Below, piece by piece: positions 36,001 through 45,000 of a DNA stretch of 64,000 bases. The DNA comes from Elusimicrobiota bacterium (GTDB lineage Bacteria > Elusimicrobiota > Elusimicrobia > UBA1565 > JACRDR01), in NCBI GenBank assembly GCA_041694815.1, contig JBGFSC010000033.1, positions 64,001 through 128,000 on the forward strand, given 5' to 3'. Position 1 is the first letter of the stretch. Every line of letters begins with the position of its first letter. The position numbers are program-made.

Positions 36001-39000
36001 TCGGACGTCACGATCACGATCTACGACATGCTCGGCTACACCGTCAAGACCTTCACCTTTTCCCCCGGACAGCAGGGTGGACGTGCCGGCCCCAACTTCG
36101 TTACTTGGGATGGCCGCAACGGGGAGGGCCGGCTGGTCGCCAAGGGCGGCTACGTAGCCCGTATCAAGGCCGGCTCCTCGGCCGGCACCGGCACCGTCAT
36201 CCGAAAGATCGGCGTTATCCATTAATTCAGGTGCCAGGCATCCACTTTCTACACTTTGTTGAAATTCTCGAGAAAGTAGAGAAAGTGTAGAAAGTGAATG
36301 TCTGGCACCTAAATATTCTTCCTTAATAGGGTATTGACAAAGCCCTTGACAAAGCAAGTGGACCTGTTATACTAGGGGGGTAAGCACTCCTGCAGCCGGT
36401 CAAGACAGCGTGTTACGGGGCTCATAGGCGCTGTCATTCGCTTTCCGGCTGCGGGCGATAATAGCAAACCCGCCGCAAGACGGGGGCGCAAAGCCGTGGT
36501 CCCGGTTTCCGGGATGCCAGGCTGCCGAATGCGATGGCCCGAAGAGAACGATTAGGGGCTTGTCCCCTGCTTCAGAACTGCCTCAAGAGCGCGGCCTTGG
36601 CCGGCTTTTGGGGCGTCGTCGTTTTAGGGGCCATCCCGGCGTTCGCCGGGGAAGGAGGCGGGCAGGCGGGCACCTTCCTTTCCTATGGGGTCGGCGCCCG
36701 CGCCCTGGCGATGGGCGGTGCCTTCTACGCCATCTCAGACGACGCTACCGCGGGGTACTGGAACCCGGCCGGCTTGGCCCAGGTTCAACGCAAGGAGCTC
36801 ACTACGATGCAGGCCACGCTCTTCGCCCAGACCAAGCTCACCTATATGGGCTTCGCCTATCCCCGCGCCGCCGGCGGCACCTGGGCCTTCAGCCTGACGC
36901 AGTTGGTCTCCTCCGGTTTCGAGAAGGTCAGCGCCACCTTCGACCCCGCCACCAGCGAGCCCACCGGGGTGCAGACCGCGGGCAGCTTCTCCGACCAACA
37001 GACGGCCTACGGCCTGTCCTGGGGAAAGCAGGTCACCGACACCATGTCCTTCGGAACGACGCTCAAGCAGGTCAAGCGCCAGCTCGACAATTCCGTCGAC
37101 AGCCATATGGCCATGGACATCGGCATGATGCGGCAGATGTCGAGTCTCCACAGGCTCGGCATCGGCGTGCAGAACGTCTTTAGCCGCAGCTCCGGGGACA
37201 CCGACGATAAACTGCCCGTCACGGCGAAGCTAGGCAACAGCCTGACCCTCTTTAAGGGTCGCCTTCTCTTCGGCCTCGACCTCGCCAAGCCACAGACCAG
37301 CGGCTTGGGCTGGCGCTTCGGCGGCGAGTTCTGGGCCACCCGCTGGTTTCCGCTCCGCTTCGGCCTGATGGGTTCGCCGGGCATCCAGGAGACCGATTTC
37401 GGCTTCGGCCTCGCCTTCCGCTACTTCAACCTCGACATCGCCAACGGCATCCACGATCTCGGCGCCAGCACCCGCATCTCGCTGACGGCCAAGTTCGGCA
37501 AGTCCAAGAACGAGGTTTCGGGAGAGAAGATCAGCGCGCTCATCCAGGCGGGCTTCGAGGCCTTCAAGGAGGGCAATTTCCGCCTCGCCACGGTGCGCTT
37601 CACGCAGGCGGCCGACGCCGACCCGGAGAACCGCGACGTGCGCGCGATGCTCACCCGCCTGCAGACGGCGGTGACCTACGTGCCCGAGGCCCAGGGCGGC
37701 GAGGAGATACAGACCTACATCCGCAAGGGCGTGATCGCCTACGTCGACGGCCGCGACCTGCGGGGCGCGGTCAATTCCCTGCGCTACGCCTTCAACAAGA
37801 ACCCGCGCGACGAGAAGCTGCTCTCCTTGCTCAACTTAGTCGAGCGCGAGACGGGGGCCTCGGAGATGACCCGCAAGCCGGAGGGGCCCGAGCAGTTCAC
37901 CTTCGTCGATCAGAAGATCTTCGACGCGCGCCAGGCCGTCTACGACGGCAAGTACGACCTGGCCATCCGCCGCACGCAGGACGTGCTCGACCTGGAGCCC
38001 AACAACGTCACGGCGCTCGAGATCATGGGCAGCGCCTTCTTCCTGATGGAGGAGCGGGCCAAGGCGAAGGCGGTCTGGAAGAAGGTGCTCCAGATCGACC
38101 CGAAGAACCGGGTGGTGCGCGAATTCCTCCAGCAGATTCAGTAAACGGCGACGAGCCAGGCATTGCCGCCTGCGGAGACCTCCTACGGCAATGCCTGGCT
38201 CGTCGCCGGGCGACTTGAAAATTTAATATGGGGCCCCTACACTTATCGAGTATGCTCCGCTTAAGGATCGTGGCGGCCTTATTGGCCGTTCACGCGGCGA
38301 TGCCCGTCGGCGCCCGGGCGGTCGTCGACGCTCCCGACCTGTCGCTGCTCGAGAGAGAGACCGCCCTCAAGCGCGAGATCGAGAACAAGATCCAAAGCGA
38401 TATTCTCGACCCGATACTGGGCAAGGACCGGGCGAAGGTATTCATGGACATCCAGTTGGAGGTCATGGCCCAGCAGCGCGAGAATCAGCGCACCGGCGCC
38501 GGCATGGCGGAACGCTACAAAGAGAAGCTCGGTCCCAATCCGGGCGCCAGCTTTCCCATGCAATTCATCCTGCCCGGGGTGCCCAAGCCGAAGAACGTCA
38601 ACAACGCCCCGACCCCCAAGCCGGAGGCCTCGCAGGGCCAGGTCGCCTCGCAGGAGAAGGCCGACAAGGAGGAGATATTCTCCCTGCAGACCACGGTCAA
38701 GCGCCTGCTCGTGACCGTGATCCACGACGATAGCCTGCCGCAGCCCAAACTCGAGATGGTGCGCCAGCGCATCATTGATGCCCTCACGCAGTTTAAGCTC
38801 GGCAAGGACCAGATCGTTTTCCGACCCACGAATTTCAAGACGGCCGTATGGCTCGACGATTTGAAGAACCCGAGCGTCTACATCCCGCTGCTCTACGCGC
38901 TCCTCCTGCTGCTGCTGCTGCTGTTCCTCTTCGGACCGCTGGCGGGTTTCATGCGCCGCTATGTCGAGGCCATCCGGGAGAAACCCGCCGCGGAGGTGAA

Positions 39001-42000: not shown

Positions 42001-45000
42001 GGTGATGCGCTCCTCCGGCGAGGACACCTCCAAGATCGTCGGCACCTTCGTCGCCTTGTCACAGAAGGCCAAGCGGGAAGGCTTCCTCGCGCTGCAAGGC
42101 GACGTGCGCGGGCTCGACAACGATTTCCTGAGGCGGGGGGTGCAGCTCGTCATCGACGGGGCCGACCAGGAATTCATCCGGAACATGCTCGAGACCGAGA
42201 TTGGCTTCCTCCGCGAACGGCATAAGGTCGGCCAGGAGATATTCAACGCCATGGGCACCTACGCCCCCGCCTTCGGCATCATCGGTACCGTGCTGGGCAT
42301 GATACTCATGCTCTCCTCGATCGATGACGTCGCTCAGGTCCCGCGCCGTATGGCCCTGGCCCTGGCGGCCGCCTTCTACGGGCTCGGCTCCGGTTACATG
42401 ATATTCCTGCCCATGGGCGGCAAGCTTCGGCGGCGTTCCGAGGAGGAGATGCTCGTCAAGGAGATCGTCATCCGCGGGGTGCTGCTCCTGCAAAGCGGCG
42501 CGACCCCGAGCGTGGTGGAGGCCAATCTCAAGGCTTACTTGGAACCGGCCAAGCGCGTATTGATCAAGACGGCCGAGGAAGCGACGCCCGCCGCCCCGGC
42601 GCCCGGAGCAAGATAATGCCCCTACGGGCGCCCAAGGGCTTCATCGACGAGACGGACCCCAAGGTCTGCCAGATTGGGCACCCCGCGCCCCCCTGGCTCG
42701 TCAACTACGCCGATCTCATGACCGAACTGGTCTGCTTCTTCGTCATTCTCTACGCCTTGTCGGCGGCACTCAACAAGAACGTGCAGCAGGCCGCCAAGCA
42801 GGTCAAGGAGATGATCGAGAACAAGGAAGTCTCGGGTGAGGTGAAGGTCGACCGCGAAGGGCTCAAGATATCGCTGGAGGAGCAGGGAGAGAACGTCTTT
42901 TTCGAGAGCGGTTCGGCGGAGCTTACCCCGCGTATGCGCGTGCTCATGAACAAGCTCGCCCCGGTGCTGACTAAGCTCGTGCAGCAGCACGAGATCATCA
43001 TCGAGGGGCATACCGACAATATCCCGATCAAGAACGACCTCTACCTCTCCAATTGGGAGCTCTCCTCCGAGCGCGCCACCAATGTCGTCGAATACCTGAT
43101 CATGGCGCACGGCTTCCCGCCATCCAAGATGGGGGCCATGGGGTACGGTGAGAACCGTCCGGTCGTTGCCAACGACACGCCGGCCAATCGCGCGCGCAAC
43201 CGCCGGGTGGTTTTCTTCGTCAAGAACGCACCGATCGCGCCGCCGGCGGCCGCCAAGGCGCCCGCGGCCGTGCCCGCGCAGGCACAGGCTCCGCTTCCCG
43301 CCTCTAAGGGGGCGCTCGAGACGCTTCGAGGCGTCTTGTCCCGATTTACTCCAAAATGATTCAATAAGACGAATGCCCCGCCTCGTTCTATTCCTTTCCT
43401 TAATAATGACCTTGAGCGCCTGCTCAGGCCTGCAATTGGGCAAGGGCAGGAAGAAGGTTGTCTTGTTCGATTACGCGGAAGGGCGCGTCGTCGACGTCGC
43501 GATTACGGACCGGCGCACGGGGGCCACGGAATTGCTGTTCGTATCGATGCCGAAGCGCTCCCTGTTCTTGGAAGGCTATATTCAGGGAATCGTCACCGAT
43601 TACAACGACAACCCGATCCAGGGGGTGATCGTGCGTGCCTTGGCCGAGGGCGAGCAGAAAATGATCGAAAGCGGAAAGGCGGCCTTCCAGAGCTCATCCT
43701 TCGACGCGGGCGTCAGCGACACCAACGGCATCTACCGCATCCGCTTTTCTTTGCCCGTGATCAATCGCAAGATCGACGTGCGCGGGAAATTCCTGTACAA
43801 TCCGGGCTGGGAGCAGGAGAAGGTCAATCTCGGCAAGGCGTACGAGCCCCAGACCAAGGAATCCCCCTTCCGGCTCATCTTCGATGAGGCGCAGGGAATG
43901 CTCGTATTCGCCGAGGGGATCCGCAAGGCCATCGTGATGCCCGTGCTCAGCAACGCCCCTCCCAAGACGCAGCTGCCCGGCGTCAAGCCCGTCGAGGCCC
44001 CGAAGGAAGAGAAGAAGCCGGAAAAGCCTGCGGAAGACGACCTGTTCAAGAGCTTCGGCTTCGGCCCCTAGCCTGCCTTTCCCGCGATGAAACGCCGAGT
44101 CTACCTCGACCACAACGCGACCACGCCCATACGTCCCGAGGTGCTGGAGGCGATGTTGCCCTACCTGCGGGAGCGCTACGGCAATCCCAACAGCCCCTAT
44201 TGGCTGGGCCAGGAGAGCCGGGCGGCGGTGGAGAAGGCCCGGGCCCAGGTCGCGCGGCTCGTCAACGCCAAGCCCTCGGAGATCGTATTCACCTCCTGCG
44301 GCTCGGAATCGGACGTGCTGGCCATCGCCGGCGCGGCCCAAAGCGCCTTCGAGCGCAGCAGGGGCGCCAAGAGGCATATCATCGCCTCCAGTATCGAACA
44401 CGACGCCGTGCGCGGCATCCTCGAGACCCTCCGCCGCAGGGGCTTTTCGATCTCCATCTTGCCGGTAGACGAGCATGGGCGCGTGGACCCGCAGAGCCTC
44501 CGGAAAGCGATTCAAGACGACACCGCCCTGGTCTCGGTGATGCACGCCAACAACGAGGTCGGCACGGTGCAGCCGATCCGCGAGCTGGCCGCGGTCTGCC
44601 GTCAGGAAGGGGTGCCGTTCCACACCGACGCGGTGCAGTCCGCCGGCAAGATACCCATCGATTTTCGCGATATCGGGGCGGATTTCTTGGCGATCTCGGG
44701 CCATAAGATCAACGCCCCGAAGGGGGTCGGGGCCTTGGTCGTGCGGGAGGGCGCCGCACTTTCTCCGGTGATCACCGGCCATCAGGAAAAAAACCGGCGC
44801 GGCGGTACGGAGAACGTGGCCTCGATCGTCGCGCTGGGCAAGGCCTGCGAGCTCGCGCAGTCCGAGCTCGCCGCCCACGCGAAGCAGCTTTCCGTCCTGA
44901 GAAAGCGATTGGAGGAGGGCTGCCTCAAGATACCGCGCTCGAGGCTCAACGGGCATCCGACCGAGCGCCTGCCGGGCACCTGCCATGTCTCCTTCGAGGG

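What a model noticed while it worked through the whole genome (the two positions that open the first line are those of the whole stretch)
36454..44071. Riboswitch-controlled FliF-FliG fusion rotor with MotAB stator in a flagellum-less bacterium
A c-di-GMP-I riboswitch heads a 7-gene operon: PorV-like outer-membrane barrel with a TPR tail (g01762), a membrane protein that fuses a FliF-like RBM3/beta-collar periplasmic ring domain through a TM helix to FliG middle and C-terminal (torque) domains plus TPRs (g01763), a 457-aa coiled-coil protein, FlbD, flagellar-type MotA and MotB, and a lipoprotein. The genome has no other flagellar or chemotaxis gene, so this is a stand-alone minimal rotor/stator motor. 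It is conserved in the larger-genome lineages of Elusimicrobiota and missing from the small-genome ones; from its PorV-like first gene and the giant CTD adhesin gene before it I propose that it moves or deploys surface adhesins (glidi [...]
Evidence so far: pfam.tsv: FliG_M/FliG_C on g01763, FlbD, MotA_ExbB, MotB_plug/OmpA; no FlhA, FliP, FliM, FliN, rod, hook, flagellin or Che rows. PDB phmmer: FliG middle+C domains E 3e-33 to T. maritima FliG, MotA E 7e-53, MotB E 2e-34 with the TM Asp kept. AF2 model of residues 28-200 (pLDDT 70): ranks 1-14 and 18-21 of Foldseek against PDB are FliF MS-ring RBM3/collar structures, rank 15 SpoIIIAG. Gene order g01762-g01768 is kept in the 80 Elusimicrobiota loci fetched wherever the contig reaches; c-di-GMP riboswitch upstream in 8 of 8 loci scanned. 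FlhA in 1 of 101 genomes of the order while FliG_C is in 82 of 100 (relatives.tsv). FliG_C in 27 of 71 genomes >=90% complete drawn over the phylum: 0 of 23 and [...]
(Added by a program. Inside this text positions count along the whole contig: contig position 64,001 is position 1 of the stretch shown here. "Call 12" and the like, gene names such as g00115 and contig names such as C1 are that model's own, and its searches are not shown. The text may have been shortened before it was handed on; [...] marks where a part breaks off. The agent that wrote the report below was given it as the finding of a first reader that could run no searches.)

Follow-up and report, generated by a model that had tools for sequence, protein, structure and literature searches.

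The report
Flagellum-free FliF-FliG/MotAB motor operon
A bacterium with no flagellum keeps a conserved, riboswitch-headed operon that joins a one-protein rotor (flagellar ring protein FliF fused to torque protein FliG) and flagellar-type MotAB stators to an outer-membrane barrel of the kind used in gliding and type IX secretion, which looks like an undescribed ion-driven machine.

Summary

The genome (97.8% complete) gave no match for FlhA, FliP, rod, flagellin, FliM/N or CheW.

- The motor is not stand-alone. The genome has four FliF-FliG-type genes and four flagellar-type MotAB pairs.
- The giant adhesin is not a conserved neighbour: 3 of 12 related loci.
- The full seven-gene order holds in close relatives only.

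New support:
- TPR-tailed PorV/PorP-type barrel genes sit directly upstream of FliF-FliG genes in 37 of the 39 best rows across the phylum, and beside paralogues too.
- FliG_C and MotA occur in nearly the same genomes (56 and 57 of 151).
- One flagellated relative carries both systems.
- One stator-rotor charge pair is kept and one is lost on both partners.

What the machine moves is still inferred. This scan found the same system before on three other genomes. I found no paper on it.

The parts
36346..36373 (+). Sigma-70-like promoter (TTGACA, 16 nt, TATACT, with TG before the -10), about 80 nt upstream of the aptamer
   Evidence: 11 of 12 consensus positions. 4 promoter-like sites were found in the region against 0.8 expected from shuffles.
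36454..36530 (+). c-di-GMP-I-class (GEMM-I) riboswitch aptamer. It ends 3 nt before the ATG of the first gene.
   Evidence: RF03167, 60.7 bits. The same element, best matched by RF03167 or RF01051, is in 12 of 13 related loci. 6 of 20 consensus pairs show compensatory changes. No terminator-like site lies between the aptamer and the ATG.
36534..38144 (+). Outer-membrane PorV/PorQ-family barrel (about residues 45-321) with a C-terminal TPR tail (about residues 330-536)
   Evidence: NF033709, 98.4 bits against a cut-off of 90; the equivalog models PorV, PorQ and PorV2 all score far below their cut-offs. TPR families. 12 orthologues are 57-72% identical, tail included.
38228..40180 (+). FliF-FliG fusion ('FliFG'). 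In order: signal peptide or N-terminal anchor; periplasmic RBM3/beta-collar domain (about residues 28-215); transmembrane helix (about 216-243); linker; FliG middle and C-terminal domains (306-525); TPRs (561-650).
40193..41566 (+). 457-aa protein with a proline-rich N-terminus and a long charged, heptad-like stretch. No signal peptide is seen. Function unknown.
   Evidence: No Pfam or NCBIfam match. Present after FliFG in 14 of 14 related loci at 34-50% identity. The atlas gave only generic coiled-coil look-alikes at low recognition.
41563..41787 (+). FlbD/SwrD-family protein (74 aa). Its start overlaps the stop of the preceding gene by 4 nt.
   Evidence: PF06289, 89.6 bits. Present in 13 of 14 related loci; the contig of the 14th ends first.
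41801..42616 (+). Flagellar-type MotA (stator A subunit), full length including the cytoplasmic domain
   Evidence: NCBIfam MotP/MotA/PomA models align end to end, below the equivalog cut-offs. PDB 6ysf_E, E 6.6e-53 over residues 2-254. Orthologues are 75-86% identical.
42616..43359 (+). Flagellar-type MotB with transmembrane Asp, plug and OmpA-like peptidoglycan-binding domain
   Evidence: MotB_plug 46.9 bits and OmpA 76.8 bits. PDB 6ysf_A, E 2e-34, Asp aligned to Asp. The Asp is kept in all 15 aligned rows.
43373..44071 (+). Lipoprotein (lipobox L-S-A-C) with a beta-sandwich domain, a low-complexity linker and a conserved acidic/aromatic C-terminal motif
   Evidence: ORF translation. 293 homologues; every source name that gives a phylum says Elusimicrobia/Elusimicrobiota. 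Alignment. AF2 model, pLDDT 70.4. No Foldseek PDB match at E<=0.001.
181..36225 (+). Neighbour, not a conserved part: a giant 12,014-aa ORF with Ig-like repeats and a C-terminal FlgD_ig / T9SS-CTD-like domain
   Evidence: Big_13 and FlgD_ig. Por_Secre_tail scores 17.3 bits, below the cut-off of 23. A related C-terminus lies upstream in 3 of 12 related loci.

Best explanation
The operon encodes a non-flagellar, ion-driven rotor-stator machine that spans the cell envelope.

Shown:
- MotA/MotB here are complete flagellar-type stators, with the channel Asp, the plug and a peptidoglycan anchor.
- The partner is a single protein. Its cytoplasmic half is FliG (middle and C-terminal 'torque' domains). 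Its periplasmic half has the ring-building RBM3/beta-collar fold of the MS-ring protein FliF.
- The rest of the flagellum was not found in the genome.

Inferred:
- FliFG subunits assemble into a membrane ring through the RBM3/collar domain.
- MotAB units push on the FliG_C face and turn the ring. FlbD/SwrD assists the stators.
- The ring's periplasmic face acts on the TPR tail of the PorV/PorP-type outer-membrane barrel encoded just upstream. That face includes a conserved loop at the tip of the collar.
- In this way proton or sodium flux at the inner membrane is turned into movement or turnover of proteins held by that barrel at the cell surface, such as type-IX-style cargo or adhesins.
- A c-di-GMP-class riboswitch abuts the first start codon and gates expression, probably at translation initiation.

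The cell runs several paralogous copies of the machine. Some are wired to two-component regulators instead of a riboswitch.
For: Parts and homology.

FliF-type fold of residues 28-230:
- AF2 model, pLDDT 81.5, pTM 0.63, from a 42-sequence alignment.
- Foldseek ranks 1-18 are all FliF entries (E 1.2e-7 to 6.1e-5); rank 19 is SpoIIIAG.

Sequence-level link to FliF:
- PF08345 scores above its 23.8 cut-off in the own-genome paralogue on C41 (37 bits).
- It also does so in family members P0167 (27.0 bits) and P0191 (31.9 bits).
- The paralogues align collinearly with the window protein over the whole length.

No flagellum.

Selection:
- The 119 listed homologues other than the window's own protein are 54-70% identical.
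- MotA orthologues are 75-86% identical.
- The collar-tip loop (residues 90-144) is disordered in the monomer model, yet it is as conserved as the folded parts: 0.78 mean majority frequency over 120 sequences.

Co-distribution: FliG_C is in 56 of 151 genomes and flagellar-type MotA in 57 of 151. 55 genomes have both. Neither occurs in family f4 (0 of 46 each). FlhA is in only 4 of 151.

Co-existence: genome G062 has a full flagellar cluster (FliF, FliG, FliH, FliI, FliK, FlgE, MotAB). It also has FliFG-FlbD-MotA-MotB elsewhere. Its flagellar MotA is 34% identical to the window's MotA, and its fusion-linked MotA is 74% identical.

Coupling to the barrel:
- 37 of the 39 best non-own PorV-TPR rows (38-65% identity) lie directly upstream of a FliG_C match on the same contig and strand.
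- TPR-tailed paralogues sit beside paralogous FliG_C genes in many genomes (same calls).
- In the own genome, the C41 FliFG follows a type-B-CTD protein (TIGR04131, 41.1 bits against a cut-off of 35), then a PorV/PorP-like barrel with TPR, then a histidine kinase.

Co-adapted interface (residue pairing as stated in PMC12505986):
- MotA R90-equivalent is K in 13 of 13 sequences, and its FliG partner D288-equivalent is E in 15 of 15.
- MotA E98-equivalent is Q in 13 of 13, and its FliG partner R281-equivalent is G in 14 of 15.
Against: - No ring, rotation or contact was tested. The complex predictor was not available.
- Only 1 of the 5 classical charged torque-helix residues keeps its charge, so the interface differs from flagellar motors.
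- The window protein's own PF08345 score (17.0 bits) is below the cut-off.
- The barrel link is not universal. It is missing next to FliFG in locus L014 and in G062.
- Outside the window's class, the orthologous MotA often lies on another contig or far away. It is within 10 kb of the type-I FliG_C in 15 of 46 rows (my count). Fragmented assemblies account for some of these.
- The giant adhesin is a lineage-specific neighbour.
- The SprA-like protein is near-universal in the phylum, including lineages without the motor. The motor therefore cannot be the general energiser of that route.
- Whether the riboswitch turns expression on or off is unknown.
Confidence: 0.5

Rival explanations
1. The motor is the energiser of a type-IX-like secretion route. 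It would replace GldLM/PorLM and power export or release of CTD cargo through the SprA-like translocon by way of the PorV-like shuttle.
For: - GldM_1st and GldL gave no match in the own genome.
- A SprA-like 1829-aa protein is present: TIGR04189, 142.5 bits, E 9.4e-42.
- PorV/PorQ-family and PorP-like barrels and a type-B CTD protein lie beside FliFG genes.
Against: - The SprA-like protein is in 140 of 151 genomes, including 45 of 46 and 34 of 44 in the two families that lack FliG_C and MotA.
- The GldL search rang in none of the control genomes, so its blank is uninformative.
- The SprA-like match is below the family cut-off of 200 bits.
Confidence: 0.15
2. The machine is an envelope force transducer in the manner of Tol-Pal or Ton. 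The MotAB/FliFG unit would tension or position outer-membrane barrels, for outer-membrane integrity, division or uptake, without moving adhesins.
For: - MotB is anchored to peptidoglycan, and the partner barrel has a periplasmic TPR tail.
- A conserved periplasmic lipoprotein is part of the operon.
- Several paralogous units occur per genome.
Against: - The genome also has four TolQ/ExbB-sized MotA_ExbB genes for such roles.
- The FliG_C torque domain and the MS-ring-type collar are, as far as I recall, known only from rotors.
- PorV/PorP-family barrels are tied to surface-protein handling (PMC9143113, search listing only).
Confidence: 0.12
3. The machine is a sensory or regulatory device. The ring-stator unit would report load or surface contact to two-component systems rather than do mechanical work on a cargo.
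For: Paralogous loci are packed with signalling genes:
- Histidine kinases flank the FliFG genes on C41 and C7.
- The gene after those two FliFG genes carries an HATPase_c domain; the C41 copy also has a coiled-coil stretch.
- Response regulators sit beside the MotAB pair on C29.
- A REC-PilB-type ATPase lies beside the C7 set.
Against: - The window operon itself has no kinase or regulator; it has a riboswitch instead.
- The regulators may simply control the paralogues.
Confidence: 0.1
4. The operon is a decaying remnant of a lost flagellum with no present function.
For: All recognisable core parts are homologous to flagellar proteins, and the rest of the flagellum was not found.
Against: - All seven frames are intact, and orthologues are highly conserved in 45 of 63 genera.
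- Each genome holds multiple paralogues.
- The system co-exists with a complete flagellar cluster in G062.
- The operon has its own promoter and a conserved riboswitch.
Confidence: 0.02

Closest known systems
Bacterial flagellar motor core (MotA5B2 stator; FliG torque ring; FliF MS-ring; FlbD/SwrD accessory)
   Same: - MotA and MotB align over their full length to solved flagellar stators, with the plug and the channel Asp.
- The FliG middle and C-terminal domains are present.
- The periplasmic domain has the FliF RBM3/beta-collar fold.
- FlbD is next to motA-motB.
- Engineered FliF-FliG fusions still form rings in Vibrio and Salmonella (PMC11481574 and 10.1101/2023.02.06.527414, abstracts in the search listing).
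   Different: - No FlhA, FliP, rod, hook/flagellin or FliM/N was found, and no chemotaxis protein CheW.
- The FliF RBM1-2 region (PF01514) and FliG_N did not match; a weak FliG_N score lies over the middle domain.
- The fusion is natural and carries C-terminal TPRs.
- 4 of the 5 classical torque-helix charges are lost.
- The EHPQ motif of FliG_M reads E-E-P-W (alignment; the role of the motif is recalled).
- Each genome holds several paralogues.
Type IX secretion / Bacteroidota gliding machinery (GldLM motor, SprA translocon, PorV shuttle, PorP/SprF anchors for type-B CTD adhesins)
   Same: - An ion-driven inner-membrane motor is genetically tied to PorV/PorQ/PorP-family outer-membrane barrels and to CTD-type surface proteins.
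- Pairs of a type-B CTD protein and a PorP-like gene are a known arrangement (PMC9143113, listing only).
   Different: - The motor is MotAB plus FliFG, not GldLM.
- The barrels carry TPR tails.
- The PorV, PorQ, SprA and CTD-A models score below their curated cut-offs.
- The phylum lies outside the Bacteroidota.
c-di-GMP-I (GEMM-I) riboswitches, including the GEMM-Ib variants that sense 3'3'-cGAMP
   Same: Rfam matches in the window and in 12 of 13 related loci, with compensatory base-pair changes.
   Different: - The best model in the window is the 'GGC' variant, yet all 13 aptamers carry A where that model's consensus has G. On my mapping this is A47.
- The window, L005 and L018 (3 of 13) carry A at what I map as the G20 position; the other 10 carry G.
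- G20A makes such aptamers accept c-GAMP as well as c-di-GMP (PMC6140456, passages).
- The position mapping is my inference from the Rfam structure line and recalled numbering.
SpoIIIAG and injectisome inner rings (PrgK/EscJ): other ring-building-motif proteins
   Different: FliF entries fill every Foldseek rank above SpoIIIAG and cover the long beta-hairpin. None of these other proteins is fused to FliG or encoded with MotAB.

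Membership tests
Bacterial flagellum | MotA/MotB stator with channel Asp, plug and peptidoglycan-binding domain | tested here: met
   Pfam MotA_ExbB, MotB_plug and OmpA. PDB matches at 6.6e-53 and 2e-34 with Asp aligned.
Bacterial flagellum | Type III export apparatus (FlhA, FliP) | tested here: not met
   No match in the own genome, which is 97.82% complete. The controls rang in 4 flagellated genomes.
Bacterial flagellum | Rod, hook and filament proteins | tested here: not met
   Flg_bb_rod and Flagellin_N gave no match in the own genome.
Bacterial flagellum | C-ring switch proteins FliM/FliN | tested here: not met
   FliMN_C gave no match in the own genome. FliM's own N-terminal family was not searched.
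FliG | Three-domain architecture (N, M, C), with the N domain binding the FliF C-terminus | tested here: not met
   The M and C domains are present. The 27.1-bit FliG_N score lies over residues 333-416, which is the M/C region. The place of the N domain is taken by a transmembrane helix and a linker.
FliG | Conserved charged residues of the torque helix (E. coli K264, R281, D288, D289, R297) | tested here: not met
   The equivalents are Q, G, E, S and T in the window. Only the D288-equivalent keeps its charge, in 15 of 15 sequences. R281 and D288-289 are named in PMC12505986. K264, R297 and the T. maritima numbering are recalled.
FliF MS-ring protein | RBM3/beta-collar fold | tested here: met
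FliF MS-ring protein | Pfam YscJ_FliF_C (PF08345) at the gathering score | tested here: not met
   The window protein scores 17.0 bits against 23.8. The score is met by the own-genome paralogue (37 bits) and by P0167 and P0191.
FliF MS-ring protein | RBM1-RBM2 region (PF01514) | tested here: not met
   No match in the window protein. It is present in the true FliF of G062 at 218.8 bits.
FliF MS-ring protein | Assembly into a ring of about 33-34 subunits | not testable with these tools
   The complex predictor was not available.
Type IX secretion system | PorV (outer-membrane shuttle) | tested here: inconclusive
   The subfamily model NF033709 is met (98.4 against 90). The equivalog NF033710 scores 23.1 against 250.
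Type IX secretion system | GldL/GldM (PorL/PorM) motor | tested here: inconclusive
   No match in the own genome. The GldL search rang in no control genome, and the GldM search rang only below its cut-off, in Caulobacter.
Type IX secretion system | SprA/Sov translocon | tested here: inconclusive
   TIGR04189 scores 142.5 bits against a cut-off of 200 on a 1829-aa protein. SprA_N scores 19.2 bits against a cut-off of 27.
Type IX secretion system | Cargo with a C-terminal sorting domain | tested here: inconclusive
   The giant ORF scores 17.3 on Por_Secre_tail against 23, and FlgD_ig scores 34.6 against 27. A type-B CTD protein at the C41 paralogue locus meets TIGR04131 (41.1 against 35).
c-di-GMP-I riboswitch (clan CL00126) | Rfam gathering score and covarying helices | tested here: met
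c-di-GMP-I riboswitch (clan CL00126) | Ligand-contacting nucleotides G20, A47, C92, and actual ligand binding | tested here: inconclusive
   The A47-equivalent is A in 13 of 13. The G20-equivalent is A in 3 of 13, the window included. C92 was not mapped. Binding cannot be tested here.
FlbD/SwrD | Pfam PF06289 at the gathering score | tested here: met
   89.6 bits against 24.7. No PDB sequence match was found.

The most novel reading that the evidence does not exclude
This is a new class of trans-envelope rotary machine. A ring made of one protein (FliF collar plus FliG) is spun by MotAB stators. Through its conserved collar-tip loop it drives TPR-tailed PorV/PorP-type outer-membrane barrels and the surface proteins they hold. 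That would be a conveyor for surface proteins, or a gliding motor, that needs neither a flagellum nor GldLM. It is present in several differently regulated copies per cell. It may also show what a flagellar rotor-stator core can do without an export apparatus or an axial structure, which bears on how the flagellar motor arose.
Probability: 0.27. Interest if true: 0.95.

Novelty: new variant of a known kind. Interest (0 to 1): 0.8.

Why it matters
As far as I know and could find, FliG and flagellar-type MotAB have only been studied as parts of flagella. A recent survey treats this stator type as flagellum-specific (PMC12505986, abstract and passages).

Here the rotor-stator core is kept, multiplied and tied to outer-membrane barrels in a phylum where 147 of the 151 genomes sampled gave no FlhA match. 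If it works as a motor, three things follow:
- It gives a minimal, one-protein rotor for structural and single-molecule work.
- It is a second, independent way to bring ion-motive force to surface proteins, besides GldLM.
- It is a living test case for modular origin or re-use of the flagellar motor.

The conserved riboswitch also links a cyclic-dinucleotide signal directly to such a machine.

Tried and rejected
- Complex prediction: I asked for the FliFG periplasmic domain with the PorV TPR tail.
- Sequencing runs holding the operon: none was listed, and no RNA holder was listed.
- Lipoprotein: the AF2 model (pLDDT 70.4) gave no Foldseek PDB match at E<=0.001, only generic beta-sandwiches.
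- 457-aa protein: no Pfam or NCBIfam family. The atlas gave generic coiled-coil look-alikes at low recognition (1616).
- FlbD against PDB sequences: no match.
- Thermodynamic fold of the leader (36440-36600): z-score 0.97, so uninformative about the expression platform.
- The 107-aa ORF 41496-41819 as FlbD: rejected. It is Arg-rich with no family match; FlbD is in another frame.
- Giant adhesin as a conserved partner: rejected, 3 of 12 loci.
- The Weinberg 2017 variant-riboswitch paper is not held by DOI. What 'GGC' stands for is therefore recalled.
- Earlier notes on this genome: none fitted.
- Literature: searches found no paper on a natural non-flagellar FliF-FliG/MotAB system. Subscription journals are largely outside that library.

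Full report
OBSERVATION.
- Rfam places one element in the 64-kb window: a c-di-GMP-I-clan aptamer at 36454-36530 (+). The best model is RF03167, at 60.7 bits against a gathering score of 59, E 7.6e-12.
- A strong sigma-70-like promoter lies at 36346-36373, with 11 of 12 consensus positions and an extended -10.
- Seven tightly packed genes follow on the + strand, with gaps of 83 nt or less and two overlaps.
  - A PorV/PorQ-family barrel with a TPR tail (NF033709, 98.4 bits against 90).
  - A 650-aa protein with FliG_M, FliG_C and TPRs.
  - A 457-aa protein with no family match.
  - FlbD (PF06289, 89.6 bits).
  - MotA.
  - MotB (MotB_plug and OmpA).
  - A lipoprotein.
- One detail differs. The long ORF 41496-41819 is the wrong frame. 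FlbD is the 74-codon frame 41563-41787, whose ATG overlaps the previous stop.
- The next gene, at 44087, is an aminotransferase class-V (cysteine-desulfurase-like) gene only 15 nt downstream. The transcript may therefore run on into unrelated genes.

THE ROTOR-LIKE PROTEIN (38228-40180).
- Layout. It begins with a signal-peptide-like or anchor segment. About 190 residues follow, then one very hydrophobic helix (about residues 216-243), a charged linker, FliG middle and C-terminal domains, and TPRs. By the usual topology rules the first domain is periplasmic and the FliG part cytoplasmic. This is an inference.
- FliG part. It matches T. maritima FliG structures at E 6.4e-34 and 1.7e-33.
- N-terminal domain, tested afresh.
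  - phmmer against 1.84 billion representatives gave 87 relatives.
  - I scanned 32 of these 87 with Pfam. Twelve of the 17 longer ones scanned carry FliG_C and FliG_M. Two of them (P0167, P0191) reach Pfam's cut-off for YscJ_FliF_C, the C-terminal ring region of FliF.
  - The window protein itself scores 17.0 bits, below the cut-off.
  - An AF2 model built on a 42-sequence alignment has pLDDT 81.5 and pTM 0.63. It shows a helix, a very long beta-hairpin and an alpha/beta unit.
  - Foldseek against the PDB puts FliF MS-ring entries at ranks 1-18 and SpoIIIAG at rank 19.
  - The fold is therefore the RBM3/beta-collar module that builds the MS ring.
- What is missing. RBM1-2 (PF01514) and a true FliG_N domain did not match. 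In flagella those parts hold the export gate and join FliF to FliG. Here the join is covalent.
- The loop. The 55-residue loop at the hairpin tip is disordered in the monomer model. It is nevertheless as conserved as the folded parts (0.78 against 0.73-0.81 over 120 sequences) and holds a near-invariant proline/lysine motif. This suggests it is ordered in an assembly or is a binding site.

THE STATOR AND ITS INTERFACE.
- MotA aligns end to end with solved flagellar MotA/PomA. The best is 6ysf at E 6.6e-53. No TolQ/ExbB entry appears at E<=0.001.
- MotB matches 6ysf_A at 2e-34, with its transmembrane Asp aligned to Asp. The Asp is kept in all 15 aligned rows: the window, 10 orthologues and 4 paralogue rows.
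- The flagellar stator-rotor charge pairs are R90 with D288/D289 and E98 with R281 in E. coli (PMC12505986, passage).
  - MotA has K at the R90 position in 13 of 13 sequences, and FliG has E at the D288 position in 15 of 15.
  - MotA has Q at the E98 position in 13 of 13, and FliG has G at the R281 position in 14 of 15. The exception is locus L014, whose MotA was not on the contig.
  - So one pair is kept and the other is neutralised on both partners. That is what a co-adapted interface would look like.
- It is still a departure from flagella. Of the five classical torque-helix charges, only one survives. K264, R297 and the T. maritima numbering are recalled.
- FlbD belongs to the SwrD family. 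Its members form hexameric rings, and a predicted contact with MotA has not been validated (PMC13740483, passages).

NO FLAGELLUM, BUT NOT A LONE MOTOR.
- The own assembly has 2.77 Mb in 54 contigs and is 97.82% complete. It gave no match for FlhA, FliP, Flg_bb_rod, Flagellin_N, FliMN_C or CheW. The controls rang in flagellated genomes.
- It does hold four FliG_C genes. Of its eight MotA_ExbB genes, four are flagellar-type MotA followed by MotB.
- The three extra FliG proteins align collinearly with the window protein or share its architecture.
  - The C41 protein reaches Pfam's cut-off for YscJ_FliF_C (37 bits).
  - On C41 the order is: type-B-CTD protein, PorV/PorP-like barrel with TPR, histidine kinase, FliFG, a protein with a coiled-coil stretch and HATPase_c, kinase.
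  - On C7 the order is: FliFG (cut by the contig end), a long HATPase_c protein, MotA, MotB, a kinase, and a REC-PilB-type ATPase.
  - On C15 the order is: FliFG, MotA, MotB, MotB, and a TPR protein related to the PorV tail.
  - On C29 a MotAB pair sits beside two response regulators.
- No riboswitch was found at these four loci.

DISTRIBUTION.
- Close relatives. The 119 listed homologues other than the window's own protein are 54-70% identical. Every source name that gives a phylum says Elusimicrobia/Elusimicrobiota.
- Phylum sample. In an even sample of 151 genomes of the phylum:
  - FliG_C is in 56 genomes (45 of 63 genera).
  - Flagellar-type MotA is in 57 (46 of 63 genera).
  - 55 genomes have both.
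  - Family f4 has neither (0 of 46 for each). Family f12 has FliG_C in 1 of 44 and MotA in 0 of 44.
  - FlhA is in 4 of 151.
- Co-existence with a flagellum. G062, one of those four, has a full flagellar cluster with a normal 525-aa FliF and 334-aa FliG.
  - It also has, elsewhere, FliFG (42% identity), FlbD, MotA (74%) and MotB (60%).
  - Its flagellar MotA is only 34% identical to the window's.
  - The fusion system is therefore a separate lineage that can co-exist with flagella, not a leftover.
- Gene order in close relatives. I fetched 14 related loci.
  - 10 hold all seven genes in the window's order.
  - 3 keep the order until the contig ends.
  - 1 (L014) has FliFG and a longer 797-aa protein but no PorV-TPR gene in 6.9 kb upstream.
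- Gene order across the phylum.
  - The tightest link is PorV-TPR with FliFG. 37 of the 39 best non-own PorV-TPR rows (identity 38-65%) lie just upstream of a FliG_C match on the same contig and strand. The exceptions are G062 and G105.
  - Weaker TPR-tailed paralogues sit beside paralogous FliG_C genes in many genomes (hand count).
  - The orthologous MotA lies within 10 kb of that FliG_C in only 15 of 46 rows. Paralogue-type MotA genes usually follow their FliFG directly (hand count; fragmented assemblies blur this).

THE RIBOSWITCH.
- The aptamer recurs in 12 of 13 related loci. It is best matched by RF03167 in 8 and by RF01051 in 4 (56.8-60 bits against a gathering score of 35). It is missing in L014.
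- Six of 20 consensus pairs show compensatory changes.
- All 13 aptamers carry A where the 'GGC' model has its distinguishing G, so I read them as ordinary GEMM-I rather than that variant. What 'GGC' means is recalled, because the source paper was not held.
- The nucleotide just 5' of the first helix maps to G20, the base that reads one guanine of c-di-GMP. It is A in the window, L005 and L018, and G in the other 10.
- G20A aptamers bind both c-di-GMP and 3'3'-cGAMP, and natural A variants sense c-GAMP (PMC6140456, passages). The window's switch may therefore have a broadened or shifted ligand range. This is an inference from my position mapping.
- The aptamer ends 3 nt before the ATG, and no terminator-like site intervenes. 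Control of translation initiation is therefore the likeliest mode. Its sign is unknown.

THE ADHESIN IDEA.
- The 12,014-aa ORF upstream has Ig-like repeats and a C-terminal FlgD_ig domain. The T9SS type-A tail model scores below its cut-off.
- A related C-terminus lies upstream in only 3 of 12 related loci. Others have unrelated ORFs there. The ORF is not part of the conserved unit.
- A SprA-like 1829-aa protein exists: TIGR04189, 142.5 bits against a cut-off of 200. It occurs in 140 of 151 genomes, including the two families without the motor. The motor is therefore not the general energiser of that protein.
- The case for a surface-protein output rests on the PorV/PorP-type barrels, on their type-B-CTD neighbour at C41, and on what such barrels do in Bacteroidota (PMC9143113, search listing only).

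MECHANISM.
- Most likely (about 0.5). FliFG forms a ring and MotAB turns it or pushes on it. The periplasmic collar, perhaps through its conserved loop, engages the TPR tail of the barrel.
  - The lipoprotein's conserved C-terminal motif is a second candidate ligand for that tail.
  - The cytoplasmic TPRs and the 457-aa protein may form a C-ring substitute.
  - All contacts are inferred.
- Rivals. A secretion energiser (0.15), a Tol/Ton-like envelope force transducer (0.12), a sensory device (0.10) and a relic (0.02).

KNOWN OR NEW.
- Five full-text searches found no description of a natural, non-flagellar FliF-FliG/MotAB system. Only engineered FliF-FliG fusions in Vibrio and Salmonella came up.
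- This scan had already met the same system on three other genomes, with the same reading.
- New here:
  - the paralogous sets in one genome;
  - the phylum-wide barrel-rotor linkage;
  - the split of stator and rotor loci outside the window's class;
  - the charge-pair pattern;
  - the co-existence with a flagellum;
  - the A/G difference in the aptamer;
  - the removal of the giant adhesin as evidence.

LIMITS.
- No assembly, contact, ligand or expression was tested.
- The adjacency counts were made by hand from tables.
- Genomes are a sample, and blanks in incomplete assemblies do not prove absence.

Noticed in passing
G000:C41 (L003:6245-11952, minus strand): A second FliF-FliG fusion (530 aa, YscJ_FliF_C above the cut-off). 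Upstream lie a T9SS type-B-CTD protein, a PorV/PorP-like barrel with a TPR tail and a histidine kinase. Downstream lies a 779-aa protein with a coiled-coil stretch and HATPase_c. No MotAB is adjacent.
   Followed up: partly
G000:C7 (L001:1-8125) and G062 (L022:113-2356, minus strand): PilB/T2SSE-type ATPases carrying a receiver domain lie next to MotAB genes in two places. One is at a paralogous FliFG locus. The other, which also has a c-di-GMP-binding-type MshEN domain, is at the true flagellar cluster of G062.
   Followed up: no
G000:C29 (L004:4304-7905, minus strand): An orphan flagellar-type MotAB pair sits directly after two response-regulator genes, with no FliG nearby. It may serve the MotAB-less FliFG on C41.
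   Followed up: no
G000:C19 (L020:2830-8319): A single-copy SprA/Sov-like 1829-aa gene is found in 140 of 151 genomes of the phylum. In this genome it lies about 1 kb from an LptF-like permease gene on the opposite strand. Its near-universality suggests a housekeeping outer-membrane role.
   Followed up: partly
window 36231-36310: A long inverted repeat lies right after the stop of the giant ORF and before the promoter. It may be a terminator or a regulatory site. I saw it by eye and did not analyse it.
   Followed up: no
window 36463: This base is A where 10 of 13 orthologous aptamers have G, at what I map as ligand-contact position G20. The same three aptamers (window, L005, L018) also share changes in the second helix.
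   Followed up: partly
P0145 and P0149: The FliFG N-terminal domain also occurs fused to a MotA_ExbB domain (333 aa, Elusimicrobia MAG) and on a protein with FtsK N-terminal domains (539 aa). About 50 of the 87 relatives are short proteins of roughly 100-270 aa with no family match.
   Followed up: no
Atlas cluster, rank 7: A 57-member cluster of about 372-aa proteins, commonest in Myxococcota, in which 67% of members carry YscJ_FliF_C. The score is 0.84, so this is a lead only. It may be another non-flagellar use of the FliF ring module.
   Followed up: no
L014:9055-11448 against window 40193-41566: The protein after FliFG varies greatly in length: 457 aa here and 797 aa in L014. In several loci the gap between its matched part and FlbD is about 0.5-1.4 kb.
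   Followed up: no
window 44087-47375: Aminotransferase class-V (cysteine-desulfurase-like), tRNA-thiolase (tRNA_Me_trans) and D-Ala-D-Ala ligase genes follow the lipoprotein gene with a gap of only 15 nt. The first of them follows the operon in 6 of the 14 related loci.
   Followed up: no
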